Positions 1,380 through 64,000 are shown, numbered from the stretch's first letter. The stretch is DNA of 64,000 nt from an uncultured Enterobacteriaceae bacterium (GCA_964565875.1 CAZMGP010000016.1:12269-76268); one strand, 5' to 3'. A program made the numbers and translations. Notes: a model not told the origin generated them from the letters alone.

Positions 1380-4292
1380 TCAGGCGCGCTCGATCTGGCA
1401 GAGCGTGGTCTTGGTTTCTTGCATCATGGTCACGGCGTCGTAACCGTAGGTCGTCGCGGTGTTCACCGCTTCGCCGCGGACGATCGGCGCCGCCCCGTCC
1501 GGATAGAAGTCGAGCATGTCCTTGCCCATCCACCAGCCGGAGAAGTGGAACGGCAGGAACACCGTATCCGGTCCGACGCGCTCGGTGACCTGCGCCATGA
1601 CCTTCAGCTTCGCCCCGGTCGGAGTCTTCACCCAGACGTAGTCGTTGTTGCGGATGCCGCGGTCGTTTGCCGACTTGGGATTGATCTCGACGAACATGCT
1701 CTGCTGCAGCTCGGCGAGCCAGGCGTTGGAACGCGTCTCCTCGCCGCCGCCCTCGTACTCGACCAGCCGGCCGCTGGTCATGATCAGCGGGAACTCCTTG
1801 GAGATGTCCTTGTTCTTCTGCTGCACCGACTTGTACAGCGTCGGCAGGCGCCAGAACGCCTTCTTGTCGTCGTGGGTCGGATACTTGTCGATGAGATCCG
1901 GCCGCGGCGAATAGAGCGGTTCGCGGTGCAGCGGCACGCCGTCGGGGAAGTTCCACACCACCGCGCGCGCCTTCGCATTCCCGAACGGATGGCAGCCGTG
2001 GACTTTCATCACCACGCGCTGGATGCCGCCGGAGAGGTCGGTCTTCCAGTTCTTGCCCTCGGCCTCTTTCTTCTCCTCGTCGGTGAGGTCGTCCCACCAG
2101 CCGAGCTTCTTCAGGAGCACGTGGTCGAATTCGGGATAGCCGGTGGTCAGATCGGCGCCCTTGGAGTACGAGCCGTCCTCGGCGAGCAGGTTCACCCCGT
2201 CCTTCTCCACGCCGAAGTTCGCGCGGAAGTTGCCGCCGCCGTCCATGACGTGGCGCGCGGTCATGTACAGGTTGGGCGAGCCCGGGTGCTTGAGCTCGGG
2301 CGTGCCGTAGCAGGGCCAAGGCAGGCCGTAATAGTCGCCGTCACAAGGCCCGCCCTTGGCGCGCAAGGTCTTGACGTCGAAGGTGTGCATGTTCTTCATG
2401 TGCAGCTTGAGCCGCTCGGGGGACTGCCCGGTATAGCCGATGGTCCAGGTGCCGCGGTTGAATTCGCGCGTGATGTCCTCGATCACGGGCTCGTCGTTCT
2501 TCACCTGGATGTTCTGCTTGCCGTCGCGCTTGCCCACCAACTGGTCGGCGAAGCCGAACTTCTTCGCGAACAGATACATGATGGTCTGGTCGGGCTTGGA
2601 CTCGAACAGCGGCTCGATCACTTTCTCGCGCCACTGCAGCGAGCGGTTGGAGGCGGTGACGCTGCCCGAAGTCTCGAACTGCGTCGCCGCCGGCAGCAGG
2701 TAGACGCCGTCCTTCCTCACCATCGCCGCCATCGCGGCGGTGGCCGACGGATAAGGATCGATCACCACCAGCAGGTCGAGCTTCTTCATCGCCTCGACCA
2801 TTTCCTTGCCGCGCGTCTGGCTGTTCGGCGCATGGCCCCAGTAGATCACAGCGCGCAAGTTCGGGTCCTGGTCGATGAGCTCGTTCTTCTCCGTTACGCC
2901 GTCGATCCAGCGCGACACGGTGATGCCCGGTTTGGTCATCATCGCTTCGGAGGCATACTGCTTCTTCAGCCAGGCAAGATCGACGTTCCAAACCTTTGCC
3001 CAATGCGCCCAGGCGCCGGGGATGATGCCGTAGTAGCCGGGCAGCGAATCCGGATTCGGCCCGATGTCGGTCGCGCCTTGCACGTTGTCGTGGCCGCGGA
3101 AGATGTTCGCGCCGCCGCCCATGACGCCGATGTTCCCCAGTGCGAGCTGGAAGATGCAGAAGGCGCGCACCATGGCGTTGCCGATGGTGTGCTGAGTCTG
3201 CCCCATGCACCAGACGATGCTCGAGGGCCGGTTCTTGGCCATGGTCTCGGCGATCTTGTAGCAATCCTCCTCGGACACGCCGGCGACTTCCTTCACCCGG
3301 TCGGGAGTCCACTTCATCACCTCTTCCTTCACCTTCTCCATGCCGTAGACGCGGTCGTGGATGTATTGCTTGTCCTCCCAGCCGTTCTTGAACACGTGAT
3401 AGAGCACGCCGTAGATCACCGGGATGTCGGTGCCGGAGCGGATGCGCACGTAATGGTCGGCCTTGGCCGCGGTGCGGGTGAAGCGCGGATCGGCGACGAT
3501 GATCTTGGCGCCGCCTTCCTTCGCATGCAGGATGTGCAGCAGCGACACCGGATGCGCTTCGGCGGCGTTAGAGCCCATGAACCAAATCGCCTTCGCGTTC
3601 TGCATGTCGTTGTAGGAGTTGGTCATGGCGCCGTAACCCCAGGTGTTGGCGACGCCGGCGACCGTAGTCGAATGGCAGATGCGCGCCTGGTGGTCGGTGT
3701 TGTTGGTGCCGAACAGGCGCACGAACTTGCACAGCAGATAGGACTGTTCGTTGCTGTGCTTGGACGAGCCGATCCAGTAGGTCGCGTCCGGGCCGCTTTC
3801 CTTTCTGATCGCGAGCAGCTTGTCGCCGACTTCGCTGATCGCCTGCTGCCACGAGATGCGCTGATACTTGCCGTTCACCAGCTTCATCGGATATTTCAGC
3901 CGGTGGGAGTGTTCGGTCATGCCGTGCTCGCGCACCGCCGCGCCCTTGGCGCAGTGCGAGCCGAGATTGATGGGCGAATCGAACACCGGCTCCTGCCGCA
4001 CCCACACCCCGTTCTGCACCACCGCGTCGATGGCGCAGCCGACCGAGCAGTGGGTGCAGATGGTGCGCTTCACCTCGACCTTGCTGCCCTCTGCGGGTAC
4101 CGGCGCGGCGTCGGCCTTGCCGATGACGTTGAACGGCAACTGCGAGGCGAATGCACCCGCACCGGCGGCGAGGCCGGAGCGCTTGAGGAAGGCGCGGCGA
4201 TCGACGGTGGTCGCCGCTGCGCCTGCGAGGCCGCGTGTCAGCTTGCTGCGCCCTTCACCGGACGCGACGTTGGTGGACTTGCGCGTGAGCAT
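1380..4292 (-). CDS. Formate dehydrogenase alpha subunit (molybdopterin), Tat-exported, Cys-type
   Basis: 970 aa. Twin-arginine signal (DRRAFLKRSGLAAGAGA), N-terminal CTHCSVGC Fe-S motif, and active-site region ARICHSTTV with Cys where Sec-type enzymes carry U. Continuous ORF with no in-frame TGA. Confidence 0.93.
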   Translation of the reverse strand: MLTRKSTNVASGEGRSKLTRGLAGAAATTVDRRAFLKRSGLAAGAGAFASQLPFNVIGKADAAPVPAEGSKVEVKRTICTHCSVGCAIDAVVQNGVWVRQEPVFDSPINLGSHCAKGAAVREHGMTEHSHRLKYPMKLVNGKYQRISWQQAISEVGDKLLAIRKESGPDATYWIGSSKHSNEQSYLLCKFVRLFGTNNTDHQARICHSTTVAGVANTWGYGAMTNSYNDMQNAKAIWFMGSNAAEAHPVSLLHILHAKEGGAKIIVADPRFTRTAAKADHYVRIRSGTDIPVIYGVLYHVFKNGWEDKQYIHDRVYGMEKVKEEVMKWTPDRVKEVAGVSEEDCYKIAETMAKNRPSSIVWCMGQTQHTIGNAMVRAFCIFQLALGNIGVMGGGANIFRGHDNVQGATDIGPNPDSLPGYYGIIPGAWAHWAKVWNVDLAWLKKQYASEAMMTKPGITVSRWIDGVTEKNELIDQDPNLRAVIYWGHAPNSQTRGKEMVEAMKKLDLLVVIDPYPSATAAMAAMVRKDGVYLLPAATQFETSGSVTASNRSLQWREKVIEPLFESKPDQTIMYLFAKKFGFADQLVGKRDGKQNIQVKNDEPVIEDITREFNRGTWTIGYTGQSPERLKLHMKNMHTFDVKTLRAKGGPCDGDYYGLPWPCYGTPELKHPGSPNLYMTARHVMDGGGNFRANFGVEKDGVNLLAEDGSYSKGADLTTGYPEFDHVLLKKLGWWDDLTDEEKKEAEGKNWKTDLSGGIQRVVMKVHGCHPFGNAKARAVVWNFPDGVPLHREPLYSPRPDLIDKYPTHDDKKAFWRLPTLYKSVQQKNKDISKEFPLIMTSGRLVEYEGGGEETRSNAWLAELQQSMFVEINPKSANDRGIRNNDYVWVKTPTGAKLKVMAQVTERVGPDTVFLPFHFSGWWMGKDMLDFYPDGAAPIVRGEAVNTATTYGYDAVTMMQETKTTLCQIERA

Positions 4293-51891: not shown

Positions 51892-52542
51892 TTACTTGTT
51901 GTGACAGGTCTTGCACAGAGCACTGCCCGTGCCCGCTACCTTCAGCAGCCCCGGGCCGGGCACCGTGTACTTGTTGTGAACGTCGTGGCAGGTGGAGCAC
52001 TCCACTTGTCCGCTGAATAGAATCACCGAAGCGATGGTGCCGGTCTGCGTCTGCGTTCCCGAGCCGATGGTCACCACCTGCGAGCTCGGGTCGAACAACG
52101 AGCCGTTCGCCACGGCCAAGGCGGAATCGTAGACGAAACCGATCGGATGATCGTCCTTCAGATTGGCACCGATGTTGTTGGCGCTGCTGATGTAAGTTGA
52201 GCCTGACGCGCCGCCGAAACTATCCACCGCGACGGTGCCGTCGTGGCACGACAGGCACAGTTTCGACAATATCCCCGGCTGCCCGATGCTGGCCTTCAGC
52301 GTCGCACTGCCGTAGAGCGCGTAACTTTGGGCGGACAGCGCGTGATTCCATTGCGGCGCGCCCGGGATCGAAGTCATCGAACTGTGCGAGTCGTGGCAAG
52401 TGATGCAGACCTGGCCACCCGACCAGTTGTAATTGGTGAAGTCGTGGGCCGAACCCAGGATCGATCCGGCCTCGGCGGCGTGCGCCGCGAGCACCAACAC
52501 GCCTGCCACAGACAACTTAATCGCGCGCTTGCTCCAGTACAT
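51892..52542 (-). CDS. Tetrahaem c-type cytochrome, paralogue 3
   Basis: Preferred ATG at 52542 (SD GGGAGGA). 216 aa with signal peptide. Four CxxCH motifs (CITCH, CLSCH, CSTCH, CKTCH). Ends 2 residues after the last haem motif. Confidence 0.88.
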   Translation of the reverse strand: MYWSKRAIKLSVAGVLVLAAHAAEAGSILGSAHDFTNYNWSGGQVCITCHDSHSSMTSIPGAPQWNHALSAQSYALYGSATLKASIGQPGILSKLCLSCHDGTVAVDSFGGASGSTYISSANNIGANLKDDHPIGFVYDSALAVANGSLFDPSSQVVTIGSGTQTQTGTIASVILFSGQVECSTCHDVHNKYTVPGPGLLKVAGTGSALCKTCHNK

Positions 52543-52618
52543 GTCGATCCTCCCGTGCCAGTGCGGGCAAGTCCGCCGATCGGCGATGGACACCACTTCC
52601 CGCGCTGCCGCCTTCTCC

Positions 52619-53269
52619 CTAGTAATTGTGACAAGCGAAGCAAATCGCGCTTCGCGCCGTGCTGATTTTCATCAGCCTTGCCGTCGTCGCCGTGTAGGTG
52701 TTGTGCACGTCGTGGCAGGACGAACATTCGATCTGCCCGCCGTAGAGCATCATCGCGGCGATGGTACCGGTTTTCGTCTGCGCGCCGCTGCCGATCGTCA
52801 CCGTGGTGACGCTCGGATCGAACAGCGCTGCGTCGCGAACGGCGAGCGCGGAGTCATAAAGAAAACTCGAAGGATGATGCACGTTCAAGTCGGTCCCGAG
52901 CTTGTTCGCGCTGCTGATATACACGCCGCCGGGTGCCCCCCCGTAGCTGTCGACCGCGACCGTGCCGTCGTGGCAGGAAAGGCACAGCTTCGATGCGCTC
53001 GAGGGCTGGCCCATCACCGCTTTGAGCGTCGTGCTCGAGTACAGCGTGTACACCTGGGTGCTGCCGGCGTGGTTCCATAGCGGCGCGGCGATCACGGCGC
53101 TTTGTCCCTTGTGCGGCACGTGGCAGGCGATGCAGATCTGCCCGCCCGACCACGCCGCCGTGGAAAAATCGTGTGCCGATCCCATGATCGTGCCCGCTGC
53201 GGCAGGATGGGTTGCGAGCGCGAACAATGCCGCCGCCAGACATGCGCTCATCCGCTTCGTCGTATTCAT
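52619..53269 (-). CDS. Tetrahaem c-type cytochrome, paralogue 2
   Basis: Preferred ATG at 53269 (SD GGAGG 9 nt upstream). 216 aa with signal peptide. CIACH, CLSCH, CSSCH, CFACH. Confidence 0.88.
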   Translation of the reverse strand: MNTTKRMSACLAAALFALATHPAAAGTIMGSAHDFSTAAWSGGQICIACHVPHKGQSAVIAAPLWNHAGSTQVYTLYSSTTLKAVMGQPSSASKLCLSCHDGTVAVDSYGGAPGGVYISSANKLGTDLNVHHPSSFLYDSALAVRDAALFDPSVTTVTIGSGAQTKTGTIAAMMLYGGQIECSSCHDVHNTYTATTARLMKISTARSAICFACHNY

Positions 53270-53296
53270 GCCGCTCACCCTCCTGATACGCGCCCG

Positions 53297-55015
53297 CTAA
53301 TAGCTTTTCGGATTATGGCTCTCCCCGTGGCACACCAGATAGCACTGTCCATGGTTGGTCCCGGTGGAGATGAACTGCAGTCTTCCGTTCACCGGCTTGA
53401 CGATCGAGGTGTCGAAATTGATCAGCTTGCTGTTGTTGGTCGGCGTGCCCTGGGTGGAGCTGATGCCGTGCGGATCGTGGCAGGCGTTGCAGGGCGAGCG
53501 CTCCTCCACCACGTGCTTGCGGTGGCCGTCGTCCGTGCCGAAGGGCGAGGCACCATTGCTGGCGGAGGTCAGCACGGTGCGGTTATGGCACTTGTAGCAA
53601 AGCGCGTAATTCGCCGCGCTCTCGGTAGTGCGGTCTGCAGTGACGTATTGGCGCTCGAGCAAGGTCGGATAGATCGAGCCATGCGGCCCCTTCGGTCCGG
53701 TCCCGCCCGCACCGGGCCCAGTATTGTTGTTGTGGCAGTCCCCGCAGCGCATCGTGCTCGCGATCGTCCAGGGCGGCAGCAGGCTGGGCACGTTGGTGTT
53801 CTTCCCCGGGCCGGCAACCGGATGGTAGGAAGGATTGCCGGTGTTGAATTCGAGGCGCGTGTTGTTCTGCGCGATTTGCCGCGTCGTGTGCGACGCCGGC
53901 ATGCCGCTGCTGTCGGCGTGGCAGCGGAAACAGATCTGGTACTCGGCGATGACCGGATTGATGGCGAGGCCGTTGATGTCGATACCGCGTACGCCGGTCA
54001 GCGAACCGGGCACGGTGCCGGCGACGGCGTTCGATGCATGGGGATTGTGGCAGTCCTGGCATTCCACATGGCGCGATTGCACCACGGCAGTTTCGCTCGG
54101 ATCGTGCACGCCGGTGTTGGCCGCCACCGGATGGATCGAAGCCTTGTTGAATTCCGTCTGGATGTTGAACGTCGCCACGTTGGCGTTGTGGCAGGGGTAG
54201 CAATTGGCCTCCTCCGCCGCCGCGTTTTGCAACCACCTTTTGCCGCCGGCCGAATGCGGCCGGTGGCAGTTCTCGCAGCCGTTGGCCGCGACCGTGGCGC
54301 CGCTCGTATGCGCCCAGGGGCTCGCGCCGACGCCGTTCCAGGTCTTCGGCGACAAGCTGTGGTCGCTCTGCGCCCAATAGTTCTTCAGATGGCAGACCTG
54401 GCACAGCGCCGAGGCCTGATTCGGCATCACCAGGAACTTGCCGTTGGGATCCTCGTGCGGATCGTGGCAGGAGGTGCACTGCAGTTGGCCGGTGGAGTCC
54501 AGCCGCACCGGCCCGGTGAGCGTCGCCGGGTCGGCGAGTTCACCGCGCGTAGACGCAAGCGTCAACGTATAGGCGATGGACACCGGGTGGTCGTCGGAGA
54601 GATCGGTGCCGAGCAGCGTATTGCCTGCGCCCAGGGTCGTCGTCCCGCTCGCCATCGCGACCGCGCTGGCGCGGCTCAGCACTTCGCCCAATGCGATGGT
54701 GCCGTCGTGGCAGGACAAGCACATGAGCGACCCGCGCGTCGGCTGGCCGGCGTTGGCTTTGGCGGTCGAACTGGTGTAAGGCGTATAGGTCGAGGCGGGC
54801 GTGCGCCGGTTCCACAGCTGCATGCTCGGCGCCGCATTGTGCGGCGCGTGACAAAAAACGCAAATCTGGGTTTCGCCCGTCGCCTTCACCGTCCCCGGCC
54901 CGGATACGGAGAGATTGTGCTTGGTCGCTGCAATCCCGGCCCAGGCTTGGCTCGCGCTCAGCATCAGGGCCGCGGCGAGCAGGCGTGTCCACCGGCGCCG
55001 ATGTGCGCCGTTCAC
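53297..55015 (-). CDS. Multihaem c-type cytochrome (11 CxxCH + 1 CxxxCH)
   Basis: 572 aa. GTG start overlaps the upstream stop (GTGA). Signal peptide ...ASQAWA. KHNLS...CVFCHAPH N-terminal module. Confidence 0.9.
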   Translation of the reverse strand: MNGAHRRRWTRLLAAALMLSASQAWAGIAATKHNLSVSGPGTVKATGETQICVFCHAPHNAAPSMQLWNRRTPASTYTPYTSSTAKANAGQPTRGSLMCLSCHDGTIALGEVLSRASAVAMASGTTTLGAGNTLLGTDLSDDHPVSIAYTLTLASTRGELADPATLTGPVRLDSTGQLQCTSCHDPHEDPNGKFLVMPNQASALCQVCHLKNYWAQSDHSLSPKTWNGVGASPWAHTSGATVAANGCENCHRPHSAGGKRWLQNAAAEEANCYPCHNANVATFNIQTEFNKASIHPVAANTGVHDPSETAVVQSRHVECQDCHNPHASNAVAGTVPGSLTGVRGIDINGLAINPVIAEYQICFRCHADSSGMPASHTTRQIAQNNTRLEFNTGNPSYHPVAGPGKNTNVPSLLPPWTIASTMRCGDCHNNNTGPGAGGTGPKGPHGSIYPTLLERQYVTADRTTESAANYALCYKCHNRTVLTSASNGASPFGTDDGHRKHVVEERSPCNACHDPHGISSTQGTPTNNSKLINFDTSIVKPVNGRLQFISTGTNHGQCYLVCHGESHNPKSY

Positions 55016-56049
55016 ACCGCGCCCCCGACATAGCGCAGCACCTGCACGCGCTGGTTATAGGAATCGGCGATATAGATCCGGTCGTGCTCGTCGATGAAAA
55101 TGCCGGTCGGCAGCCAAAACTCGCCGCGCTCGCGGCCGAGTGTTCCGACGGAGAGGAGCAGCGCGCCGCGCTCGTCGAATACCTGCAGCGCGTTGAACAG
55201 CGAATCCACCACGTAGACGTGTCCGTAGCGGTCGGTGGCGACGCCCTTCTGCCGGCCGAGGTCGCCGTTGCCGTCGCCGTAGCGTCCGAACTTGCCGACG
55301 AAGTGCCCCTGCGGATCGAACATTTGCACGCGGAAGTTCAACGCGTCGGTGACGTAGAGCCGCCCTTCGGCGTTGCGCCAGGCGAGCGTCGGATAATTGA
55401 ATTCGCCGTCCGCCGTGCCGCGACGGCCGATGCTCGTAACCAGGGCACCGCCGCGGTCGAATACCTGCACGCAGTGCGCCCGCGTGTCGACCACGAACAG
55501 GCGTCCGCTTGCGGGATCGAAGGCGAGGCCCGTAGGCTGCTGCAGCTTCGCCTGCAATGGAAGCGGCGCAGCCGTCTTCGCGCCGGGCCGGATGAGGTAG
55601 ACCGCGGCGAGCGCCGAGTCGCTGACGTAGACTTCGCCTTCCGCGCCGCGCGCAAGGCCCACCGGGGAGAGCAAGGGGCGCTCCTGTGGCCCTTGGATGA
55701 GCGCGTATTCGCCGCGCGCGCGGTCGAAGCGATGTACCCCTTTCACGCCGGGGTCGGCGACGTACACGACGTCGCCTACCGTCACCACCGACATCGGCCG
55801 AATCAGGCGTGTTTCGCTGCGCCCGAACAAGAGATCGCCCAGACGCGCCAGCAGTCCGCGTTCGATGCCCAAATCCTCGGGTCGGGAAAAGGCGCGCACG
55901 TAGGCAAGACGCGGTGGATCGGGCGCCGCGGGCCATGCCAGGGCGGGTTCCTCGTGCCGCTCTTGCGCGCTCGGCGCGCAGCCGGCGAGCGCAAGCGCCA
56001 GGGCGAGCCCAAGCGAGGTGCTGAAGATCGCTTTGGCCGTCACGCTCAA
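55012..56049 (-). CDS. NHL-repeat beta-propeller lipoprotein
   Basis: Preferred TTG at 56049 overlaps the barrel-gene stop (TTGA); GTG at 56043 is also possible. Lipobox LALAGC. Six repeats of the type (V/L)YV(A/V/T)DxxNxxVQ(V/M)FD. Confidence 0.83.
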   Translation of the reverse strand: MSVTAKAIFSTSLGLALALALAGCAPSAQERHEEPALAWPAAPDPPRLAYVRAFSRPEDLGIERGLLARLGDLLFGRSETRLIRPMSVVTVGDVVYVADPGVKGVHRFDRARGEYALIQGPQERPLLSPVGLARGAEGEVYVSDSALAAVYLIRPGAKTAAPLPLQAKLQQPTGLAFDPASGRLFVVDTRAHCVQVFDRGGALVTSIGRRGTADGEFNYPTLAWRNAEGRLYVTDALNFRVQMFDPQGHFVGKFGRYGDGNGDLGRQKGVATDRYGHVYVVDSLFNALQVFDERGALLLSVGTLGRERGEFWLPTGIFIDEHDRIYIADSYNQRVQVLRYVGGAV

Positions 56050-58148
56050 AAGTCCCTGCGCGCGAGCAATTGAACGAGCGCGCGCGAGCGTTTGAAATCG
56101 CCCTGCGTCTCGAGCGTGCGTCCGATATCCAGGCTCACGCTCGCCTTGCGGTAACGCCACTGCGCCTTCAGCGACTCCATCGTCCGGCGGCGCGGAATCG
56201 GGCTGCCGTTGTCGCTTTCGTAGCCCGCGTTCAAAGACAGATCGATACCGAACCAGTAGCGCGACCAGTAGCGCAGGTCATAGCCTTGGAGGTTCACGTT
56301 CTGCAGGGAGTTGGCGTAGTCGACGCGCATGCGCCGCGCCGACAGCCGAATGTTGCCGGTGCCGAAAAACGGCTCCTCCGACTGCACGTAGACGTCGCCC
56401 GACTGGCGCTTGTAGGGGGAAATGGTTTCGCGCCGGTCTTCGTGCTCCAGGTTGCCGCCGATGCTGATTTCGAAGCGCGCTTTCAGCGGCAGATCGGCGC
56501 GCAGGCCGTAGAGATTGCTCTTGATGGCATTCAGCGGAAAAGTCGGCGTGCCCGAAGTCAGGCGCGGCGCCGAATCGAAATAGCGGAAATAGACGCTGGC
56601 GTAGCTGAGCCAGCCCAGACTCAGATTCAGCGTCTGATCGGCCTGGTTGTAGGTGAAGCTGCCGCCGACGTCGTAAGCGTAATCCGCGAGCACGTCCTGC
56701 CCGTCGACGATCGCCCCGCCGATGAGCCGTTGCACCCGGGTCAGCGTGCCGATCACGGTCAGCGTGTAGTCGAAACCTTCGACATAGGTCTGCGTGCGCG
56801 TGGCGTTGGCGAGCACCAGGCTGCCGCTCGCCACATGCTGCTGGGCGAGCGCGACGAACGAAGTTCCGGCGAGCGTGAGGCGTTCGCCGATGATGCGTGC
56901 CTGTGTCGCCGCCGCCTGCTGCTCGCGCTGGTCGTAGCGCAAGCCGTAGCTCGCCAGCGCCGTGGTGCTACCCAGCTTCTCTTGATAGCGGACGGATCCG
57001 TCCGCGCCGCGGTTACGCGCGTCGAGTTGCTTGGTCCGATTATCGTCGGCGTGCACCCCGAGTGCGCCGGTCCACTCGGGGCGCGGCGCATAAGTCAAGC
57101 CGGCGGAAGCCGCGTGCGCCACCGAACTCAGATCGGCCTGATCGCTCGCTGCGTAATTGAGCAAGCCGAAAGTCTGCAATTCCTTGGAATGCCGGCCGCG
57201 CAGGTCGAGCAGGATCCGCTCGTCCTTCCGGTCCGGGATCGAAGTGCCGCCGGCGAGCGCGTAGCTTTGCGTGTTGACGGTGATGAGGTTGGTCAGGTCG
57301 TACTCGCGCGCGCTGCCGAATTGGAAGCGCGAATCGAGGTTGAGACCCTGATTGCTCGAATTCGACGCCTGAATCGGCAGATTCGGGCTGCCGCTCAACG
57401 ACGCCTGCTGCGTCGTCTGGAATTGCAGCTGGGTCGATCCCAGGCCACCGAAGCTGCGGCTCGCCCGCAGATTTACCCGGTCCACCTGATCGTCGACGAT
57501 GCGGTCCGCGCCGCGCCCTTGAAAATGCGAGCGCGTCGCATCGATGAACAGCGGTACCGGCGTCACCGGGGCGAGCAGCGAGAAATCGAAGCCGTAACGC
57601 GTGTTTTCCTGCGTCATCACCTGCCCCGGCGCGACGCTCACGGTCGGGTTGAGGTGATCGAAGAACAGCGATCCCTGATAGGGCTTGTCGTGCAGGAAAC
57701 TCGCGCGGCTGGTGAAATTGTAGAGGGTGCCGCGCGATTGGGTTTCGCCCGCATCCGAGACGAAACTGCCGTGCTGCAGGATCGGCCCCCCGCCGATATC
57801 CAGCGACAGCAGATTGGGATGATAGACATAGCTGTGCGTCATCAAGAACACTTCCTCGCGCATGTCCGACATGGCCTGGCGCGAGCGCGAACCGGCTGCC
57901 GCGCCCACCGCAGGCTGTTCGGTGGCGAAGTCGTCACGCAGGTAGCGCATGGTGACGTAGCCCTCGGTCCCGGTGATACGGAAAGGCGCGATCTGTTGCG
58001 CGACGCAAGGCCAGGCGCCGAGCGCGGCCATAGCGACTGCGACGCGAAATACACCGCTGATCGAGGCATGCTCGCATGTCAGGCTTCCTGCTCGTTGCGC
58101 CTCGGCGGCCGGGGCACAGAAGGACAATTCCGCTATGCGCGCCGTCAA
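56046..58148 (-). CDS. Large outer-membrane beta-barrel (porin-like) protein
   Basis: 700-aa ORF. Alternating amphipathic strand pattern throughout (YGFDFSL, LQFQTTQ, GIDLSLNAGYES) and a C-terminal ...LLARRDF with terminal Phe. The TTG start at 58148 overlaps the upstream stop. The N-terminus/signal peptide is uncertain. Confidence 0.7.
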   Translation of the reverse strand: MTARIAELSFCAPAAEAQRAGSLTCEHASISGVFRVAVAMAALGAWPCVAQQIAPFRITGTEGYVTMRYLRDDFATEQPAVGAAAGSRSRQAMSDMREEVFLMTHSYVYHPNLLSLDIGGGPILQHGSFVSDAGETQSRGTLYNFTSRASFLHDKPYQGSLFFDHLNPTVSVAPGQVMTQENTRYGFDFSLLAPVTPVPLFIDATRSHFQGRGADRIVDDQVDRVNLRASRSFGGLGSTQLQFQTTQQASLSGSPNLPIQASNSSNQGLNLDSRFQFGSAREYDLTNLITVNTQSYALAGGTSIPDRKDERILLDLRGRHSKELQTFGLLNYAASDQADLSSVAHAASAGLTYAPRPEWTGALGVHADDNRTKQLDARNRGADGSVRYQEKLGSTTALASYGLRYDQREQQAAATQARIIGERLTLAGTSFVALAQQHVASGSLVLANATRTQTYVEGFDYTLTVIGTLTRVQRLIGGAIVDGQDVLADYAYDVGGSFTYNQADQTLNLSLGWLSYASVYFRYFDSAPRLTSGTPTFPLNAIKSNLYGLRADLPLKARFEISIGGNLEHEDRRETISPYKRQSGDVYVQSEEPFFGTGNIRLSARRMRVDYANSLQNVNLQGYDLRYWSRYWFGIDLSLNAGYESDNGSPIPRRRTMESLKAQWRYRKASVSLDIGRTLETQGDFKRSRALVQLLARRDF

Positions 58149-59287
58149 CGGTTGAGCTTGGCCGTGGTCTTCGCCGACGCGCCGTCTTCAGCCGCGTAGT
58201 CCGCGCCGCGCATCTTGCCGAAACCGAAGACATCGACCTTGTTTTGGCCGAATTGGCTCACTACGAATATCAGGTATTGCAGATCGAATCCCGGTGCGGC
58301 GTAACGACGGAACGCCTCTACGTTGTCGTAGTCGATGGCGACCGCGGCGGGAAGATTCAATCCTTCGCGATTGTCGCCCGGCTGGCCGAAGAACAGCAGC
58401 AGGTGGCCGTCGTTGTCGAACACCTGCACGTTCTCGAAGGCCGAGTCGCCGACGTACAGGCGCCCCTCGCGGTCGATGGCGATGCCCTTCGGCCGGGAAA
58501 AATTGCCGCGTTCGTTGCCGATCTCGCCGTAGGCGCGCAGCGGTGCGCCGTCGGCGGTGAAGCGCTGCACGCGGAAATTGCTGGTTTCCACCACGTAGAC
58601 GTCGCCGTTCGGGCCGATGGCGATGTTGGTCGGATGAAACAGCTCTCCCAGCTTCGATCCCGCCTGGCCGAACGTGAACAGCAGCTTGCCCGAGCGCTTG
58701 TCCAATACCTGCACCTGATGGTGCTGGATGTCGACCACGTAGAGTCGCTCTCCCGCGATGGCGGTGTCCACCGGCTTGAACTGCTTATCGCCGCCGAATG
58801 CATTGACGAATCGGTCGTCGCGATCGAACACCAGCACTTGGTCACGGCCGGTGTCGGTGACGTACTTGGTGCCGTCGGCGTCGACAGTGATGTTGATCGG
58901 CCGCTTCATGCGGCCGCTCGGGGCGCCATTGACGAGGCTGAACGACTGCCGCGCGAGATCGAACACCGCCAACCCCGGCGCGCGGCTGTCGACGACGTAG
59001 AGCTTACCGTCGAACATCGCCACGCCGTAGGGCTGCTTGAGCTGCTGCACCTTGGCGTCGTCGCCGAGAACGAACTGCGCGAATCCGCTCGTCGCTGCGC
59101 CCAGGTCACGCTCGCCGCTGATGGTCTTGAGATGCTGGATGCGCGGAGCTTCCGGCGCCGGCGGATAGAACGTCGGTCCCTGGACACGCGGCGCCTCCAC
59201 CGGCGCCGTCGCGCATGCCGCGAGCAGCGCGACGAGGCAGACGCTCGCCGCACTCCGGCGCAAATTCATCGCGCGCATCCGGACCAT
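58145..59287 (-). CDS. NHL-repeat beta-propeller lipoprotein (paralogue)
   Basis: 380 aa with lipobox LLAAC and repeated LYVVDxxxxxVQVxD-type NHL blades. Confidence 0.85.
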   Translation of the reverse strand: MVRMRAMNLRRSAASVCLVALLAACATAPVEAPRVQGPTFYPPAPEAPRIQHLKTISGERDLGAATSGFAQFVLGDDAKVQQLKQPYGVAMFDGKLYVVDSRAPGLAVFDLARQSFSLVNGAPSGRMKRPINITVDADGTKYVTDTGRDQVLVFDRDDRFVNAFGGDKQFKPVDTAIAGERLYVVDIQHHQVQVLDKRSGKLLFTFGQAGSKLGELFHPTNIAIGPNGDVYVVETSNFRVQRFTADGAPLRAYGEIGNERGNFSRPKGIAIDREGRLYVGDSAFENVQVFDNDGHLLLFFGQPGDNREGLNLPAAVAIDYDNVEAFRRYAAPGFDLQYLIFVVSQFGQNKVDVFGFGKMRGADYAAEDGASAKTTAKLNR

Positions 59288-59298
59288 TGCTCTCGCTG

Positions 59299-59961
59299 CT
59301 ACTTGTTGTGGCAGGCCACGCAGATCTTGCTGCCCGCCGTGTCCATCTTCACCATGCCGGTGCCGTTGGCGCCGACGGCGAAAGTGTTATGCACGTCGTG
59401 GCAGGAGGAGCATTCCATCTGGCCGTTGAACAGCATCACCGAGGCCACGGTACCGGTCTTGGTCTGCGCTCCGGCGCCGATGGTCACGGTTTTCGTCGCC
59501 GGGTCGAACAGCGAGCCGTTGGCGTTGGCGAGCGTGGTGTCGTAGAGGAAACCGATCGGATGATCGTCGTTCAGGGCGGCGCCGCCGAGATTGTTCTTTG
59601 CGCTGATGGTCGTGGTGCCCACCGTGCCGCCGAAGCTGTCGACCGCCACTGTACCGTCGTGGCAGGACAGGCACAGCTTGGAGTTGCCCTCCGGCTGCCC
59701 CAGCGCTGCTTTCAATGTCGGGCTGCTGTAGAGCGTATACACCTGCGTCGTCACCGCGTGGTTCCACAGGGGCGCCGCGGACACCGAGGTATTGCTGTTG
59801 TGCGGCGTATGGCAGGTAACGCAGACCTTCTGTCCCGGGTTCCAGTTCGCGGTGGAAAAGTCGTGCGCCGATCCCGCCAAAGTGCCGGCGAAGCCGAACT
59901 GTGCCGCTAGCAGCAGTCCCGTCCCTGCGATCCATTTAACTGCGACTGTCAGTGATTTCAT
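59299..59961 (-). CDS. Tetrahaem c-type cytochrome, paralogue 1 (first gene of operon)
   Basis: 220 aa, SD GAGGAG, signal peptide. CVTCH, CLSCH, CSSCH, CVACH. Confidence 0.88.
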   Translation of the reverse strand: MKSLTVAVKWIAGTGLLLAAQFGFAGTLAGSAHDFSTANWNPGQKVCVTCHTPHNSNTSVSAAPLWNHAVTTQVYTLYSSPTLKAALGQPEGNSKLCLSCHDGTVAVDSFGGTVGTTTISAKNNLGGAALNDDHPIGFLYDTTLANANGSLFDPATKTVTIGAGAQTKTGTVASVMLFNGQMECSSCHDVHNTFAVGANGTGMVKMDTAGSKICVACHNK

Positions 59962-60243: not shown

Positions 60244-61137
60244 ATGAACTACGAAGCCACGCTGACTCAAGCGGCGGCCGCGCGCCGCCCGGACACCCCT
60301 GCACCTGCTGTCGACACGCCTGCGCCTGCGCAGCAGCCGAAGCGCGTACCGCCGTCCGCCGCGATCGCCGCCATGTCGACGATGCTCCTCGTCTGGGCGT
60401 GGAACGTGCACCACGCCGGCCTGTACCAATCGGGAAAGGGTCTCGGCTACGTTCTCGGCCTAGTCGGCGGCTCGCTGATGCTGGTGCTGCTCCTCTACCC
60501 GTTGCGCAAGCACCTGCGCGTCATGCACGAATGGGGGCCGCTCAAATATTGGTTTCGTTTCCACATGATCGCGGGCGTGCTGGGGCCGCTGCTGGTGTTG
60601 TTCCATTCGACCTTCCGCGTCGGTTCGCTGAACGCGGCCGTAGCGCTCGCCTGCATGCTGCTCGTTGTCGCGAGCGGGCTCGCCGGCCGCTTTCTCTACC
60701 GCAAGATTCACCACGGCCTGTACGGCAGCCGCGCGAGCCTGCAGGAATTGCAGCAAACCCTGGCGCGCGAACGCGAAGCGCTGTCGCATTTGCTCGCGCG
60801 CCTGCCGCAAGTCGAGCGCGAGATCGACCGCTTCGCCGCCCTGGTCGCCCACGAGCCGCAAGGCTGGTACCGGCGCTGGGCGCATTTTCTATCGCTGGGT
60901 GCGAAACGCGCACTCGCGGTGCACCGTGCGCGGCGCGCCGTAGCGGCGCACGGTGTCCGATCAGACCTCGCCGCCCTGCTCGTCACCATCGACGCCACGC
61001 TGAAAGCGGTACAGCGCACGGCGCAGTTCTCCACCTATGAGCGCCTGTTTTCCCTCTGGCATGTGGTCCACATTCCGTTCTTGTGCATGCTGGTCATCAC
61101 TGCCCTCATCCATGTCGTGGCTGTTCACGTTTACTAG
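60244..61137 (+). CDS. Integral membrane protein with two His-x13-His helices (candidate di-haem b electron conduit)
   Basis: 297 aa with about 5 predicted TM helices. FRFHMIAGVLGPLLVLFH and WHVVHIPFLCMLVITALIHVV carry His pairs with 13 intervening residues. Confidence 0.7.
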   Translation: MNYEATLTQAAAARRPDTPAPAVDTPAPAQQPKRVPPSAAIAAMSTMLLVWAWNVHHAGLYQSGKGLGYVLGLVGGSLMLVLLLYPLRKHLRVMHEWGPLKYWFRFHMIAGVLGPLLVLFHSTFRVGSLNAAVALACMLLVVASGLAGRFLYRKIHHGLYGSRASLQELQQTLAREREALSHLLARLPQVEREIDRFAALVAHEPQGWYRRWAHFLSLGAKRALAVHRARRAVAAHGVRSDLAALLVTIDATLKAVQRTAQFSTYERLFSLWHVVHIPFLCMLVITALIHVVAVHVY

Positions 61138-62923
61138 GTTCATCGCCGCCGCCGCTCATTTCGTAGTCGCCATCTTCTTCGCCGGCGCTGCGCCTGCCGC
61201 GGCGCAGATGCTCGAGTCGGCGATCATGCCGGGCGCGGTCATTCAAGGCCACATCAAGCAGGAATCCGATTGCAAGAACTGCCACGTGCGCTTCGACCGG
61301 GCGGCGCAGCCGCGACTGTGCCTGGACTGCCACAAGGAGGTGGCGCGCGACGTGCAGGCGAAGACCGGCTACCACGGGCGCCTGAAGGAGCGCGAGTGTC
61401 GCGGCTGCCATACCGAGCACAAGGGGCGCAATGCCCGCATCGTCGTGCTCGACGAGCATGCCTTCGATCACGCCCAGACCGATTTCCTGTTGCAAGGCAA
61501 GCACGCCAAGCTCGCCTGCTCGAGTTGCCACCGCCCGCGCGTCAAACATCGGCAGGCGCCCACTTCCTGCGTCGGCTGTCACCGCAAGGACGACAAGCAC
61601 AAGGAGACACTAGGCGCCAAATGCGAAAGCTGCCACAGCGAAAAGAGCTGGAAGGAGGCGCGCTTCGATCACGCCAAGACGCAGTTCCCGCTCGTCGAGC
61701 GTCACGCCAAAGTGAAGTGCGCAGAATGCCACGCCGACGCACAGCACTTTGCCAAAACCGCGCGCGATTGCATCGCCTGCCACCGCAAGGACGACAAGCA
61801 CAAGGCGACGCTGGGCGCGAAATGCGAGAGCTGCCACAGCGAAAAGTCGTGGAAGGAAACGCGTTTCGAGCATGCGAAAACGCGCTTCCCGCTGCTCCTT
61901 TCTCACGCCAAGGTGAAGTGCAACAAGTGTCACGAAGACATGCAGCATTTGGCGAAGACCGCGAGCGACTGCGCCTCTTGTCACCGCAAGGACGACGCGC
62001 ACAAGGGAGCGCTGGGCGCGAAATGCGAGGGTTGCCACAACGAAAGGACCTGGAAAGAGGCGATTCGCTTCGATCACGCACGCGACGCGCGCTTTCCGCT
62101 GCGCGACAAGCATCAGGCCGCCAAATGCCAAAGCTGTCACAAAGATGTCCGTTTTCGCGACAAGCTGCCGACTGCCTGCTTCGGCTGCCACGAGCGCGAC
62201 GATCGCGAGAAAGGGCACAAGGGCCGCTACGGCGAGAAGTGCGAGTCTTGCCATGCCGAGAAGGCGTTCAAATCCGTTACCTTCGAACACGCCCGCGACG
62301 CGAAATTCGAACTGAAAGGCAAGCATGCGCAGGCCAAGTGCGACACCTGCCACAGCGGCGTTCTCTACCGCGACAAGCTCAAGCAGCGCTGTTTCGCCTG
62401 CCACGAAAAGGACGACAAGCACAAAGCGCAGCTAGGGCCGGAATGCGATCGCTGCCATAGCGAGCGCAACTGGAAGGAAACCTCGTTCGATCACGACCGT
62501 TCCGCGTTCCGGCTGCTCGACAAACACAAGGGCTTGGAGTGCAAGAAATGCCATGCGAGCCCCGCGTTCAAGGACGCAAAGTCCGAATGCGCCTCCTGCC
62601 ACGCCAAGGACGACTTTCACAAGGAGCGACTCGGCCCCGGCTGCGGCCAATGCCATCGGCCGCAGTCGTGGAAGACCTGGGAGTTCGACCACAATCAGCG
62701 CTCGCGCTTCAAGCTCGCCGATGCGCACGTGCGCGTGAAGTGCCTCGCCTGCCACGTGAAGCCGGTGAAGGAGAAGCTTACGCTTGCCGTCGAATGCTAC
62801 AGTTGCCACCGTGAGGACGACATCCATTTCGACACCAACGGCCAAAAATGCGAGCGCTGCCACGTGCCACAGAACTGGCGCAAAACCGTCGGCGACGCAC
62901 TGCTGCCGAAGAAGGATCGCTGA
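61112..62923 (+). CDS. 24-haem periplasmic cytochrome c (eight tandem trihaem c7-type modules)
   Basis: Preferred ATG at 61112 with signal peptide MSWLFTFTRFIAAAAHFVVAIFFAGAAPAAAQ. I counted 24 CxxCH motifs in a repeating FDH...C..CH...C..CH..DD.HK..LG..C..CH pattern. Confidence 0.9.
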   Translation: MSWLFTFTRFIAAAAHFVVAIFFAGAAPAAAQMLESAIMPGAVIQGHIKQESDCKNCHVRFDRAAQPRLCLDCHKEVARDVQAKTGYHGRLKERECRGCHTEHKGRNARIVVLDEHAFDHAQTDFLLQGKHAKLACSSCHRPRVKHRQAPTSCVGCHRKDDKHKETLGAKCESCHSEKSWKEARFDHAKTQFPLVERHAKVKCAECHADAQHFAKTARDCIACHRKDDKHKATLGAKCESCHSEKSWKETRFEHAKTRFPLLLSHAKVKCNKCHEDMQHLAKTASDCASCHRKDDAHKGALGAKCEGCHNERTWKEAIRFDHARDARFPLRDKHQAAKCQSCHKDVRFRDKLPTACFGCHERDDREKGHKGRYGEKCESCHAEKAFKSVTFEHARDAKFELKGKHAQAKCDTCHSGVLYRDKLKQRCFACHEKDDKHKAQLGPECDRCHSERNWKETSFDHDRSAFRLLDKHKGLECKKCHASPAFKDAKSECASCHAKDDFHKERLGPGCGQCHRPQSWKTWEFDHNQRSRFKLADAHVRVKCLACHVKPVKEKLTLAVECYSCHREDDIHFDTNGQKCERCHVPQNWRKTVGDALLPKKDR

Positions 62924-62944
62924 GGAGCCGGGGCGCGCACGTCG

Positions 62945-64000
62945 ATGAGCAACTTGCTCCTCCCCTTGAGCTATCTCGTGCCGCTCGTGCTGCTGCTCGG
63001 CACCTACGTCTATCGCTGGCGCCGGCGCGAGGCGCGCGCCGCGGACACGCTCGCGCGCTCGCTGAAGACGGGGTTGACCGAGCCGCCCAGCCTGCATCCC
63101 GTGATCGACCTGAATTTGTGCATGGGATCTGGCGCGTGCACGCGCGCCTGTCCGGAAGGGACCTTGGGCATCGTCAAGGGCAAGGCGCACATGATCAACC
63201 CCACCGTCTGCATCGGCCACGGCGCCTGCGCCGCTGCATGTCCGGTCGAGGCGATCAAGCTGGTGTTCGGATCGGCGCGCCGCGGCGTCGACATTCCCTA
63301 CGTCAAGCCGACGTTCGAGACCAACGTGCCTGGGATATTCATCGCCGGCGAACTCGGCGGCATGGGACTGATCCGCAATGCCGCCGAACAGGGACGGCAG
63401 GCGATGGAGTCGATTGCGCGCAACCGCGCGCAGCCCGATCAGTTGGACGTCGTGATCATCGGCGCGGGTCCGGCCGGACTGTCGGCGACGCTCGCGGCGA
63501 TGGAGCACAAGTTGCGCTTCGTCACGCTGGAGCAGGAGGACTCTCTCGGCGGCTGCGTCTACCACTATCCGCGCAACAAGATCGTCGCCACCCATCCGGT
63601 GACGCTGCCGCTGGTAGGCAAAGTCAAGTTGGGTGAGATCTCGAAGGAATCCTTACTCGAATTCTGGCAGGGCATCGTCAAGCGCACGTCGATGTCGATC
63701 CGTTTCGGCGAATGCATGGACAGCATCACCGCCGTGGACCGCGGGTTCATCGTGAAGACCGGGCGCGCTGAATACCGCTGTCGCTCGGTGCTGCTCGCCA
63801 TCGGCCGCCGCGGATCTCCGCGCAAGCTCGGCGTGCCCGGCGAGGAACTGTCCAAAGTCGTCTATCGCCTCATCGACCCGGAGCAATATCGGGGCAAGCA
63901 TGTGCTGGTGGTGGGCGGCGGCAACAGCGCGGTCGAAGCCGCAGTCGCGCTCGCGGAAGAACCGGGATCGAGCGTGACCATTTCCTACCGCGGCGAGAGC
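62945..64000 (+). CDS. Membrane-anchored Fe-S / FAD-NAD(P)-binding oxidoreductase, N-terminal 352 codons (runs off the right edge)
   Basis: Absent from the ORF track because it has no stop in the window. Manual translation: N-terminal TM helix (LLLPLSYLVPLVLLLGTYVY), two ferredoxin-like motifs CMGSGACTRACP and CIGHGACAAACP, then VVIIGAGPAGLSA (FAD) and VLVVGGGNSAVEAA (NAD(P)) Rossmann motifs. Confidence 0.8.
   Translation, partial: MSNLLLPLSYLVPLVLLLGTYVYRWRRREARAADTLARSLKTGLTEPPSLHPVIDLNLCMGSGACTRACPEGTLGIVKGKAHMINPTVCIGHGACAAACPVEAIKLVFGSARRGVDIPYVKPTFETNVPGIFIAGELGGMGLIRNAAEQGRQAMESIARNRAQPDQLDVVIIGAGPAGLSATLAAMEHKLRFVTLEQEDSLGGCVYHYPRNKIVATHPVTLPLVGKVKLGEISKESLLEFWQGIVKRTSMSIRFGECMDSITAVDRGFIVKTGRAEYRCRSVLLAIGRRGSPRKLGVPGEELSKVVYRLIDPEQYRGKHVLVVGGGNSAVEAAVALAEEPGSSVTISYRGES

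What the first reader, a model, noticed from the sequence alone, without database searches (positions are those of the whole stretch)
55012..59287. Barrel gene flanked by two paralogous six-bladed NHL lipoproteins, coupled through rare TTG starts embedded in TTGA overlaps
Seen in sequence: the junctions NHL-1/barrel (58145-58148) and barrel/NHL-2 (56046-56049) are both TTGA, a TTG start overlapping a TGA stop. NHL-2/12-haem is GTGA. Using the ORF-track ATG for NHL-2 (56160) would force a 115-nt overlap with the barrel gene and put 37 residues before the signal peptide. The TTG start is therefore the better model: MSVTAKAIFSTSLGLALALALAGC.

Inference: the weak starts depend on termination-reinitiation, which fixes the subunit ratio of a propeller-barrel-propeller complex. 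NHL propellers are protein-protein interaction scaffolds. As lipoproteins on either face of the outer membrane, they could hold cytochromes at the barrel mouths.

The barrel N-terminus is unusual. About 50 residues precede the apparent cleavage site ...PCVAQ/Q if the TTG start is used, and the only in-frame ATG, at 58031, leaves almost no signal peptide.
Basis: partly seen in the sequence, partly recalled or inferred. Interest (0 to 1): 0.6.

Follow-up and report, generated by a model that had tools for sequence, protein, structure and literature searches.

The report
Outer-membrane module of OmcE-type cytochrome cluster
The barrel gene flanked by two propeller lipoprotein genes is the conserved outer-membrane part of an already described "cytochrome nanowire" (OmcE-type) gene cluster. 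The odd start codons are local drift in tightly packed genes, not a new control device.

Summary
The sequence facts hold. TTGA lies at 58148-58145 and 56049-56046, and GTGA at 55015-55012. Both NHL proteins have lipoboxes and are paralogues (33% identity). The middle gene encodes a roughly 650-residue all-beta outer-membrane barrel.

The trio sits between an OmcE-like tetrahaem cytochrome (PDB 9YUQ/7TFS, E 1e-17) and a 12-haem cytochrome. This matches the published minimal omcE nanowire cluster, and about 45 betaproteobacterial genomes carry the same arrangement.

The start-codon reading is only partly right.
- **NHL-2:** 27 of 37 relatives start with ATG two bases after the barrel stop, which is where the window has GTG (56043). 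The TTGA exists only because the terminal Phe codon is TTT. However, four relatives that lack this ATG have only the stop-overlapping NTG as a start (TTG in three, GTG in one), so TTG remains possible. The mature lipoprotein is the same either way.
- **Barrel:** the closest relative (76% identity, fully syntenic) has ATG plus a ribosome-binding site exactly where the window has CTG (58082). The ancestral start was therefore lost, which explains the "unusual" N-terminus. TTG 58148, TTG 58127 and CTG 58082 remain candidates.
- **Family-wide coupling:** tight junctions are conserved for barrel, NHL-2 and the large cytochrome, but not for NHL-1 and the barrel.

This is an ordinary new member of a known kind.

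The parts
59299..59961 (-). OmcE-like tetrahaem cytochrome (220 aa, 4 CxxCH); first gene of the operon; candidate nanowire subunit
   Evidence: Full-length phmmer hits to the OmcE filament structures 9YUQ (8e-18) and 7TFS (2e-16). Four haem motifs.
58145..59287 (-). NHL-1: six-bladed NHL beta-propeller lipoprotein (380 aa, lipobox LAAC, Ala at +2)
   Evidence: Pfam NHL 1e-19 and DUF5128 '6-bladed beta-propeller'. Lipobox. Found upstream of the barrel in 41 of 43 assessable related loci.
58145..58148 (-). TTGA: NHL-1 stop TGA overlapping the first in-frame canonical start (TTG) of the barrel ORF. It has no ribosome-binding site of its own.
   Evidence: Sequence. Anti-SD duplex only -1.7 kcal/mol. 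The same TTGA plus CGGCGC is present in L043 and L050.
56046..58148 (-). Large outer-membrane beta-barrel, longest ORF (700 codons). The mature part runs from Q52 and is about 649 aa. It ends ...RRDF.
   Evidence: AlphaFold model with about 28-30 strands at moderate confidence (pLDDT 64, pTM 0.56). Foldseek finds only large OM barrels (LptD, FimD, PapC, MtrB). No Pfam family and no PDB sequence match. Family of about 1,500 cluster representatives.
57996..58148 (-). Barrel pre-sequence. Residues 1-22 are an extension with no coding-type conservation. Residues 23-51 are an ordinary signal peptide ((M/L)TCEHASISGVFRVAVAMAALGAWPCVAQ|Q).
   Evidence: The model shows a helix at residues 33-43.
58080..58082 (-). 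CTG at the position of the ancestral ATG start of the barrel gene, preceded by AGGAAG
   Evidence: Gapless alignment with L050 (P0001, 76% identical barrel, fully syntenic locus), which has AGGAAAC-ATG there. Duplex -4.9 kcal/mol. The letter is reproduced in the contigs of four runs.
58125..58127 (-). Second in-frame TTG, an alternative barrel start that leaves 44 residues before the cleavage site
56664..56903 (-). Conserved beta-sandwich domain of about 80 residues inserted in the barrel (residues about 416-495)
   Evidence: pLDDT about 25 in the whole-protein model but above 90 when modelled alone with 36 homologues. Weak hits to phage tail-tube and Ig-like major tail protein models (NF052337 E 6e-8, below its cut-off; phrog_807 E 2e-4). 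No significant fold match.
56046..56049 (-). TTGA: last base of the terminal Phe codon (TTT) plus the barrel stop TGA. Possible alternative NHL-2 start.
   Evidence: Relatives mostly have TTC TGA. TTT occurs in 6 of 38 loci, and 5 of those 6 lack the downstream ATG.
56041..56043 (-). GTG two bases after the barrel stop; positional homologue of the ATG start of NHL-2 in most relatives
   Evidence: TGA-NN-ATG in 27 of 37 relatives. AGGGA lies 8 nt upstream.
55012..56049 (-). NHL-2: six-bladed NHL beta-propeller lipoprotein (343 or 345 aa, lipobox LAGC, Ala at +2). The mature protein is the same for either start.
   Evidence: Pfam NHL 5e-25 and DUF5128 2e-16. Lipobox. 33% identical to NHL-1.
55012..55015 (-). 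GTGA: NHL-2 stop overlapping the start of the 12-haem cytochrome. This overlap is conserved across the family.
   Evidence: NTGA at this junction in 36 of 36 relatives (25 ATGA, 10 GTGA, 1 TTGA). Four-base overlaps in the gene calls of L050 and L051.
53297..55015 (-). 12-haem cytochrome whose first ~210 residues are OmcE-like
   Evidence: 12 haem motifs. Residues 15-211 hit 7TFS (7e-29) and 9YUQ (5e-25).

Best explanation
The three genes encode the outer-membrane module of an OmcE-type cytochrome "nanowire" / extracellular electron-transfer cluster in a betaproteobacterium from mine drainage. The module is a large beta-barrel and two paralogous NHL-propeller lipoproteins. They are co-transcribed with an OmcE-like tetrahaem subunit upstream and an OmcE-derived 12-haem cytochrome plus two more tetrahaem paralogues downstream.

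The barrel is most likely the pore or anchor through which a cytochrome chain crosses or is mounted on the outer membrane. The propellers are most likely lipid-anchored scaffolds or chaperones bound to it. Both roles are inferred and follow the published model.

The genes are packed with 4-base overlaps or a 2-base gap, so ribosomes finishing one gene probably start the next. This is ordinary translational coupling.

In this lineage two ancestral ATG starts have decayed:
- **Barrel:** ATG became CTG at 58082. The remaining candidates are TTG 58148 (overlapping the NHL-1 stop), TTG 58127, or the CTG itself. My odds are about 45%, 20% and 30%.
- **NHL-2:** ATG became GTG at 56043. A second candidate is TTG 56049, created by a TTT codon for the barrel's terminal Phe. 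My odds are about 60% GTG and 40% TTG.

All these choices give the same mature proteins after signal-peptide cleavage.
For: **System identity**
- The tetrahaem protein matches OmcE filament structures over its full length.
- The N-terminal domain of the 12-haem protein is OmcE-like.
- The barrel is a large all-beta protein.
- There are two propeller lipoproteins.
- The same gene order is found in about 45 mostly betaproteobacterial genomes. L050 is fully syntenic.

**Start codons**
- The sequence is reproduced without indels in the contigs of four runs.

**Coupling**
- NTGA at the NHL-2/cytochrome junction in 36 of 36 relatives.
- A gap of 2 nt or less, or an overlap, between barrel and NHL-2 in 36 of 37 relatives.
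Against: - No experimental data exist for this organism, and no RNA runs were found.
- Which start codon is used cannot be settled from sequence.
- The barrel model has only moderate confidence (pLDDT 64), and the strand count is approximate.
- I did not compare the barrel and propellers directly with the Geobacter or Desulfuromonas omcE-cluster proteins. Homology of these parts to the type cluster rests on gene content and on the OmcE match.
- Filament formation by the tetrahaem proteins is untested.
- The link between TTT and loss of the ATG is significant only when loci are treated as independent (Fisher p 2e-4). On the tree, too few independent pairs remain for a test.
Confidence: 0.85

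Rival explanations
1. Both TTG codons inside the TTGA overlaps are the true and only starts. They fire only by termination-reinitiation, and this sets a fixed propeller:barrel:propeller ratio.
For: - TTG 58148 is the first in-frame canonical start and has no ribosome-binding site.
- Relatives L019, L021, L027 and L043 also have only stop-overlapping or far-upstream starts for the barrel.
- L020, L022 and L030 have only the TTTTGA TTG for NHL-2.
- The rare TTT Phe codon goes together with loss of the ATG in at least four independent lineages.
Against: - GTG 56043 occupies the family's usual start position, with good ribosome-binding-site spacing.
- CTG 58082 keeps the ancestral ribosome-binding site.
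- The NHL-1/barrel overlap is not conserved (6 of 41 loci, chance frame share). Most relatives have 20-90-nt spacers with their own ATG.
- The 22-codon extension shows no coding constraint.
Confidence: 0.15
2. Positional-homology model. The barrel starts at the near-cognate CTG 58082 and NHL-2 at GTG 56043, each from its retained ribosome-binding site. The TTGA motifs are then irrelevant by-products.
For: - Exact alignment of CTG with the ATG of L050 and of GTG with the ATG of 27 relatives.
- AGGAAG and AGGGA lie upstream.
- The result is a normal 29-residue signal peptide.
Against: - CTG is a very poor initiator in bacteria (established knowledge).
- The ribosome-binding site sits only about 3 nt from the CTG.
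- Any ribosome starting at the upstream in-frame TTG would read through the CTG position anyway.
Confidence: 0.25
3. The odd barrel N-terminus is an assembly error. One possibility is a missing T in the TTT run at about 58047, which would bring the out-of-frame ATG at 58070 into frame and give MPRSAVYFRVAVAMAALGAWPCVAQ. The other possibility is that the gene is decaying.
For: The repaired reading would be a textbook signal peptide (my reading). The MAG is 94% complete with 4% contamination, and depth is low.
Against: - Contigs of four separately assembled runs agree with the window, with no indel or other letter across 58000-58167. All four runs come from the same sample.
- L050 aligns without gaps in the present frame.
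- The rest of the 650-residue ORF is intact and conserved.
Confidence: 0.04

Closest known systems
omcE cytochrome-nanowire gene cluster of Desulfuromonadia (G. sulfurreducens OmcE, PDB 7TFS; D. soudanensis OmcE, PDB 9YUQ; PMC13712944). Porin-like assembly machinery has also been proposed for OmcS (Shen et al. 2025, cited there; I did not read that paper).
   Same: The parts list is the same: an OmcE-like tetrahaem subunit, a large beta-barrel, two beta-propeller lipoproteins and further multihaem cytochromes in one cluster. The published paper already reports homologues in Pseudomonadota.
   Different: - The host is a betaproteobacterium from mine drainage.
- There are three tetrahaem paralogues plus a 12-haem protein built on an OmcE-like domain.
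- No glycosylation genes lie next to it.
- A divergent PCC3-like operon (membrane protein, 24-haem cytochrome, Fe-S flavoprotein) lies alongside.
- I did not test sequence homology of the barrel and propellers to the Geobacter proteins.
Uet (undecahaem electron transfer) cluster of 'Ca. Tenderia electrophaga' and some Gallionella (bioRxiv 10.1101/2022.05.06.490989; PMC10734462)
   Same: Tetrahaem UetA, a large barrel UetC (28 predicted strands), two NHL proteins UetH/UetI and an 11-12-haem 'doubled CXXCH' cytochrome UetJ. The same kinds of parts are present here.
   Different: - The gene order differs. In Uet the two NHL genes are adjacent and do not flank the barrel.
- No peptidyl-prolyl isomerase, trihaem c7 proteins or cupredoxin are in this operon.
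- Homology to the Uet proteins was not tested.
Translational coupling through overlapping stop and start codons (ATGA/GTGA/TGATG junctions, as in the E. coli trp operon; textbook knowledge)
   Same: Four-base stop/start overlaps or 2-nt gaps, and downstream starts with a weak, absent or badly spaced ribosome-binding site.
   Different: Nothing beyond the use of rarer start codons (TTG/GTG, possibly CTG) in this genome.
MtrAB(C) and PCC3 porin-cytochrome conduits (PDB 6R2Q; PMC5566968)
   Same: A large outer-membrane barrel associated with multihaem cytochromes. MtrB gives the best TM-score of the barrel model (0.39-0.42).
   Different: No sequence similarity to MtrB. Propeller lipoproteins are not part of Mtr or of PCC3 as described.

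Membership tests
OmcE-type cytochrome nanowire cluster (as defined in PMC13712944) | OmcE-like tetrahaem cytochrome with four CxxCH motifs | tested here: met
   Full-length matches to 9YUQ (8e-18) and 7TFS (2e-16). Four CxxCH motifs in each of the three paralogues.
OmcE-type cytochrome nanowire cluster (as defined in PMC13712944) | Large outer-membrane beta-barrel encoded in the cluster | tested here: met
   All-beta model with about 28-30 strands, a C-terminal Phe and a signal peptide. Foldseek hits only to large OM barrels.
OmcE-type cytochrome nanowire cluster (as defined in PMC13712944) | Two beta-propeller lipoproteins | tested here: met
   NHL and 6-bladed propeller Pfam hits. Lipoboxes LAAC and LAGC. 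Lipoboxes are also seen in relatives.
OmcE-type cytochrome nanowire cluster (as defined in PMC13712944) | Two further multihaem cytochromes | tested here: met
   A 12-haem protein in the operon and a 24-haem protein in the divergent operon.
OmcE-type cytochrome nanowire cluster (as defined in PMC13712944) | The tetrahaem subunit polymerises into an extracellular filament, with a distal His ligating a haem of the next subunit | not testable with these tools
   Needs cryo-EM or biochemistry. I did not check the His pattern.
OmcE-type cytochrome nanowire cluster (as defined in PMC13712944) | Barrel and propellers homologous to those of the Geobacter/Desulfuromonas clusters | not tested
The one genome-contig scan returned mainly Betaproteobacteria.
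Uet cluster | Accessory genes uetB (PPIase), uetDEG (trihaem c7) and uetF (cupredoxin) in the cluster | tested here: not met
   None is among the ORFs of 49.5-64 kb.
Translationally coupled genes (termination-reinitiation) | Stop codon of the upstream gene overlaps or abuts the downstream start | tested here: met
   TTGA, TTGA or TGA-GC-GTG, and GTGA. Conserved for barrel/NHL-2 and NHL-2/cytochrome. Not conserved for NHL-1/barrel.
Translationally coupled genes (termination-reinitiation) | Downstream expression depends on translation of the upstream gene | not testable with these tools
   Needs reporter fusions with a premature stop codon upstream.
Extended signal peptide region (ESPR) of autotransporters/TPS proteins | Conserved N-terminal extension motif (Pfam ESPR) | tested here: not met
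   No Pfam hit on the barrel. The extension is not conserved even against the closest relative.

The most novel reading that the evidence does not exclude
In several independent lineages of this family the ordinary ATG starts of the barrel and of NHL-2 have been lost. They have been replaced by stop-overlapping TTG/GTG starts. In the NHL-2 case the new start is created by a synonymous TTC-to-TTT change in the barrel's terminal Phe codon. If this change is selected rather than drift, it would make each subunit's synthesis strictly dependent on translation of the preceding one. That would fix the stoichiometry of a propeller-barrel-propeller(-cytochrome) export or anchoring machine.
Probability: 0.15. 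Interest if true: 0.45.

Novelty: new member of a known kind. Interest (0 to 1): 0.2.

Why it matters
The finding adds little to what is published. It does show that the OmcE-type outer-membrane module (propeller, barrel, propeller) is common and strictly syntenic in Betaproteobacteria. The carriers include cultured Aromatoleum and Azoarcus strains and Rhodoferax-like genomes, which could serve as tractable hosts for testing how these cytochrome wires cross the outer membrane.

For annotation, it shows that gene callers often mis-start the barrel and NHL-2 genes in this family. Many database entries are truncated or over-extended. The correct starts can be fixed by the conserved junctions: TGA-NN-ATG after the barrel and NTGA after NHL-2.

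Tried and rejected
1. **Frameshift or homopolymer error at the barrel start.** I suspected a missing T in the TTT run near 58047 that would bring ATG 58070 into frame. Rejected: the contigs of four runs agree with the window without indels, and L050 aligns without gaps in the present frame.
2. **The long barrel pre-sequence as a conserved extended signal peptide.** Rejected: most homologues have 22-35-residue signal peptides. The extension shows no coding-type conservation, and there is no ESPR hit.
3. **A specific structural relative of the barrel.** None found. There are no PDB sequence hits, and Foldseek gives only generic large barrels with TM 0.2-0.4.
4. **A fold match for the inserted domain.** Nothing significant.
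5. **RNA data to map the transcript.** No RNA runs were found.
6. **A phylogenetically controlled test of the TTT/no-ATG association.** Too few independent pairs remained.
7. **A search for 'OmcS-companion' in the paper library.** It found nothing. The Shen et al. 2025 paper is known to me only through citations.

Full report
**What is in the sequence**

On the minus strand the window carries a tightly packed operon:
- a 220-aa tetrahaem cytochrome, 59299-59961
- NHL-1, 58145-59287
- a 700-codon ORF with no Pfam family, 56046-58148
- NHL-2, ending at 55012
- a 572-aa cytochrome, 53297-55015
- two more tetrahaem paralogues, 52619-53278 and 51892-52596
- a histidine kinase and a response regulator

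CGT TGA at the NHL-1 end gives TTGA at 58148-58145. TTT TGA at the barrel end gives TTGA at 56049-56046. GTGA lies at 55015-55012.

One detail is wrong. The far-upstream start of the long NHL-2 ORF at 56160 is GTG, not ATG.

Both NHL proteins hit NHL and six-bladed-propeller models. They have lipoboxes LAAC and LAGC with Ala at +2 and are 33% identical (E 2e-37). The large cytochrome has 12 haem motifs.

**The barrel**

An AlphaFold model built from 18 homologues is all-beta with about 28-30 long strands. Mean pLDDT is 64 and pTM is 0.56. A short helix at residues 33-43 corresponds to the hydrophobic core of the signal peptide.

Foldseek returns only large outer-membrane barrels: LptD, the FimD and PapC ushers, SlpA and MtrB. 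TM-scores are 0.2-0.4, so it has no specific solved relative. There is also no PDB match by sequence. The protein ends in ...RRDF, the usual aromatic C-terminus of outer-membrane barrels.

The family has about 1,500 cluster representatives at E ≤ 1e-3 in a library of 1.8 billion proteins, yet no Pfam model.

**What the system is**

The tetrahaem protein matches the OmcE filament structures of Desulfuromonas soudanensis (9YUQ, 8e-18) and Geobacter sulfurreducens (7TFS, 2e-16) over its whole length. The first ~210 residues of the 12-haem protein match them too (7e-29).

[quoted passage not shown] It treats the barrel as a putative secretion pore or anchor. It reports homologues in five phyla, including Pseudomonadota.

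The related Uet cluster has the same kinds of parts in another order: tetrahaem UetA, barrel UetC, NHL proteins UetH/I and undecahaem UetJ.

Earlier notes of this scan on the neighbouring genes reached the same identification. I re-derived it independently.

**How widespread it is**

A scan of one genome per species found 45 loci. Nearly all are Betaproteobacteria: Rhodocyclales, Rhodoferax, Aromatoleum, Azoarcus, Leptothrix, Sulfuritalea and Thiobacillus.
- NHL-1 lies directly upstream of the barrel in 41 of 43 assessable loci.
- NHL-2 lies directly downstream in every locus where the contig continues.
- The closest relative, L050 (GCA_023258995.1, barrel 76% identical), is syntenic gene for gene, including the divergent operon.

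**NHL-2 start**

In 27 of 37 relatives the junction reads TTC TGA NN ATG. In four more it reads TGATG (examples). The window reads TTT TGA GC GTG, so GTG 56043-56041 sits exactly where the family's ATG sits.

The conserved AGGGA lies within the codons for the barrel's ...RRD. It ends 8 nt before the GTG but only 2 nt before the TTG. The TTGA exists only because the terminal Phe codon is TTT, which is rare here (15 TTT against 95 TTC in the operon).

L020, L022 and L030 have no start near the junction other than the TTG of TTTTGA. L023 has only a GTG in the same position. Each of these gives a good lipoprotein signal peptide.

TTT occurs in 6 of 38 loci, and 5 of those 6 lack the ATG. Fisher's test gives p = 2e-4 if loci are treated as independent. 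On a tree the ATG was lost at least six times and TTT arose at least five times. Too few independent pairs remain for a valid test.

I put GTG at about 60% and TTG at about 40%. Both give the same mature lipoprotein after cleavage at LAG|C. One run of the same sample carries a variant (56039 G>A) that turns the codon after the GTG into ATG.

**Barrel start**

Upstream of the signal-peptide core, the only in-frame ATG/GTG/TTG codons are TTG 58148 and TTG 58127. ATG 58031 leaves 12 residues.

Most homologues have ordinary pre-sequences of 22-35 residues. L050 aligns with the window without gaps from the TTGA onwards. It has AGGAAAC-ATG exactly where the window has AGGAAGC-CTG, at 58082-58080. 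The ancestral start was therefore ATG at that position. It would give a normal 29-residue signal peptide, (M)TCEHASISGVFRVAVAMAALGAWPCVAQ|Q.

The 22 codons between the TTGA and this position are 70% identical to L050. The differences fall 7/9/4 on codon positions 1/2/3, so there is no sign of selection on a protein.

The 'unusual N-terminus' is thus a lost start codon, not a conserved device. The same thing has happened in L043. There the homologous position is CTC, and only TTG codons 53 or 71 residues before the mature end remain.

TTG 58148 has no ribosome-binding site (-1.7 kcal/mol) and would need reinitiation by ribosomes ending NHL-1. The CTG keeps a weak, closely spaced site (-4.9 kcal/mol). 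My odds are TTG 58148 about 45%, CTG 58082 about 30% and TTG 58127 about 20%.

My own first idea was a missing T that would bring ATG 58070 into frame. The contigs of four runs agree with the window, so I dropped it.

**Coupling**

Across the family the conserved tight junctions are:
- barrel to NHL-2: a gap of 2 nt or less, or an overlap, in 36 of 37 relatives
- NHL-2 to the large cytochrome: NTGA in 36 of 36 (25 ATGA, 10 GTGA, 1 TTGA)

NHL-1 to barrel is variable. Spacers of 20-90 nt with their own ATG are usual. An in-frame stop-overlapping start occurs in 6 of 41 loci, with a frame share no higher than chance.

Translational coupling is thus likely and conserved for barrel, NHL-2 and the cytochrome. 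It is the ordinary, textbook kind, and it does not specifically tie the two propellers to the barrel.

**What is inferred, not shown**

Three things are inferences from gene content and the published model:
- the barrel is the pore or anchor for a cytochrome chain
- the propellers bind it
- the tetrahaem proteins polymerise

Nothing in the sequence places the two lipoproteins on opposite faces of the membrane.

**Verdict**

The system is a new member of a known kind, and the start-codon peculiarities are local drift in a tightly coupled operon. Interest is low.

Noticed in passing
window 56664-56903 (-), barrel residues ~416-495: A highly conserved domain of about 80 residues is inserted between barrel strands. 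Modelled alone it folds confidently as a small beta-sandwich (pLDDT above 90), although it is unmodelled in the whole-protein prediction. It has weak sequence similarity to phage tail-tube and Ig-like major tail proteins and no significant fold match. It could be a plug or a docking domain for the cytochrome or the propellers.
   Followed up: partly
window 58136-58147 and the homologous sites in L004, L024, L025, L028, L031, L042, L043, L050: The bases after the NHL-1 stop (TGA-CGGCGC) are conserved in otherwise divergent intergenic regions. In the Rhodoferax-like clade the stop-overlapping NTG opens a 6-codon mini-ORF (MTA[RHP][AT][YT]*), and the barrel then starts about 65 nt further on with a normal signal peptide. 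This could be a relic of an old coupled start or a small regulatory ORF. It remains unexplained.
   Followed up: partly
window 56039: The contig of one run from the same sample carries G>A. On the coding strand this changes the codon after GTG 56043 from ACG to ATG, creating an ATG at the NHL-2 start region in a co-existing strain (depth about 4).
   Followed up: no
L007, L020, L022, L030, L031 and window 56046-56051: The rare TTT codon for the barrel's terminal Phe occurs almost only where the ATG start of NHL-2 is missing (5 of 6 loci, against 2 of 32 with other final codons). It arose in at least four or five independent lineages. This suggests compensation by creating a TTG start, but the number of events is too small to test.
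   Followed up: yes
L043 (= L002, same-genus genome G012) 3450-3660: A second lineage has lost the proximal barrel start. The homologous codon is CTC, where P0011, P0016 and P0018 have ATG. This leaves pre-sequences of 53 or 71 residues from TTG codons. Many database entries of this family are visibly mis-started, for example MSLAQEIAPF....
   Followed up: partly
window 53297-55015 (-): The first ~210 residues of the 12-haem cytochrome are an OmcE-like domain (7TFS, 7e-29). The large cytochrome may therefore act as a cap, base or adaptor that continues the haem chain of an OmcE-type filament.
   Followed up: no
window 51892-52596 (-): The longest ORF of the third tetrahaem paralogue starts at a GTG that puts 18 residues before MYWSKRAIKLSVAGVLVLAAHAAEA. 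The internal ATG is the more likely start.
   Followed up: no
window 60244-64000 (+): A divergent operon encodes a membrane protein, a 24-haem c7-type cytochrome and an Fe-S flavoprotein. It is conserved next to the cluster in L050. The first two genes resemble the inner-membrane and periplasmic parts of PCC3 (PMC5566968).
   Followed up: no
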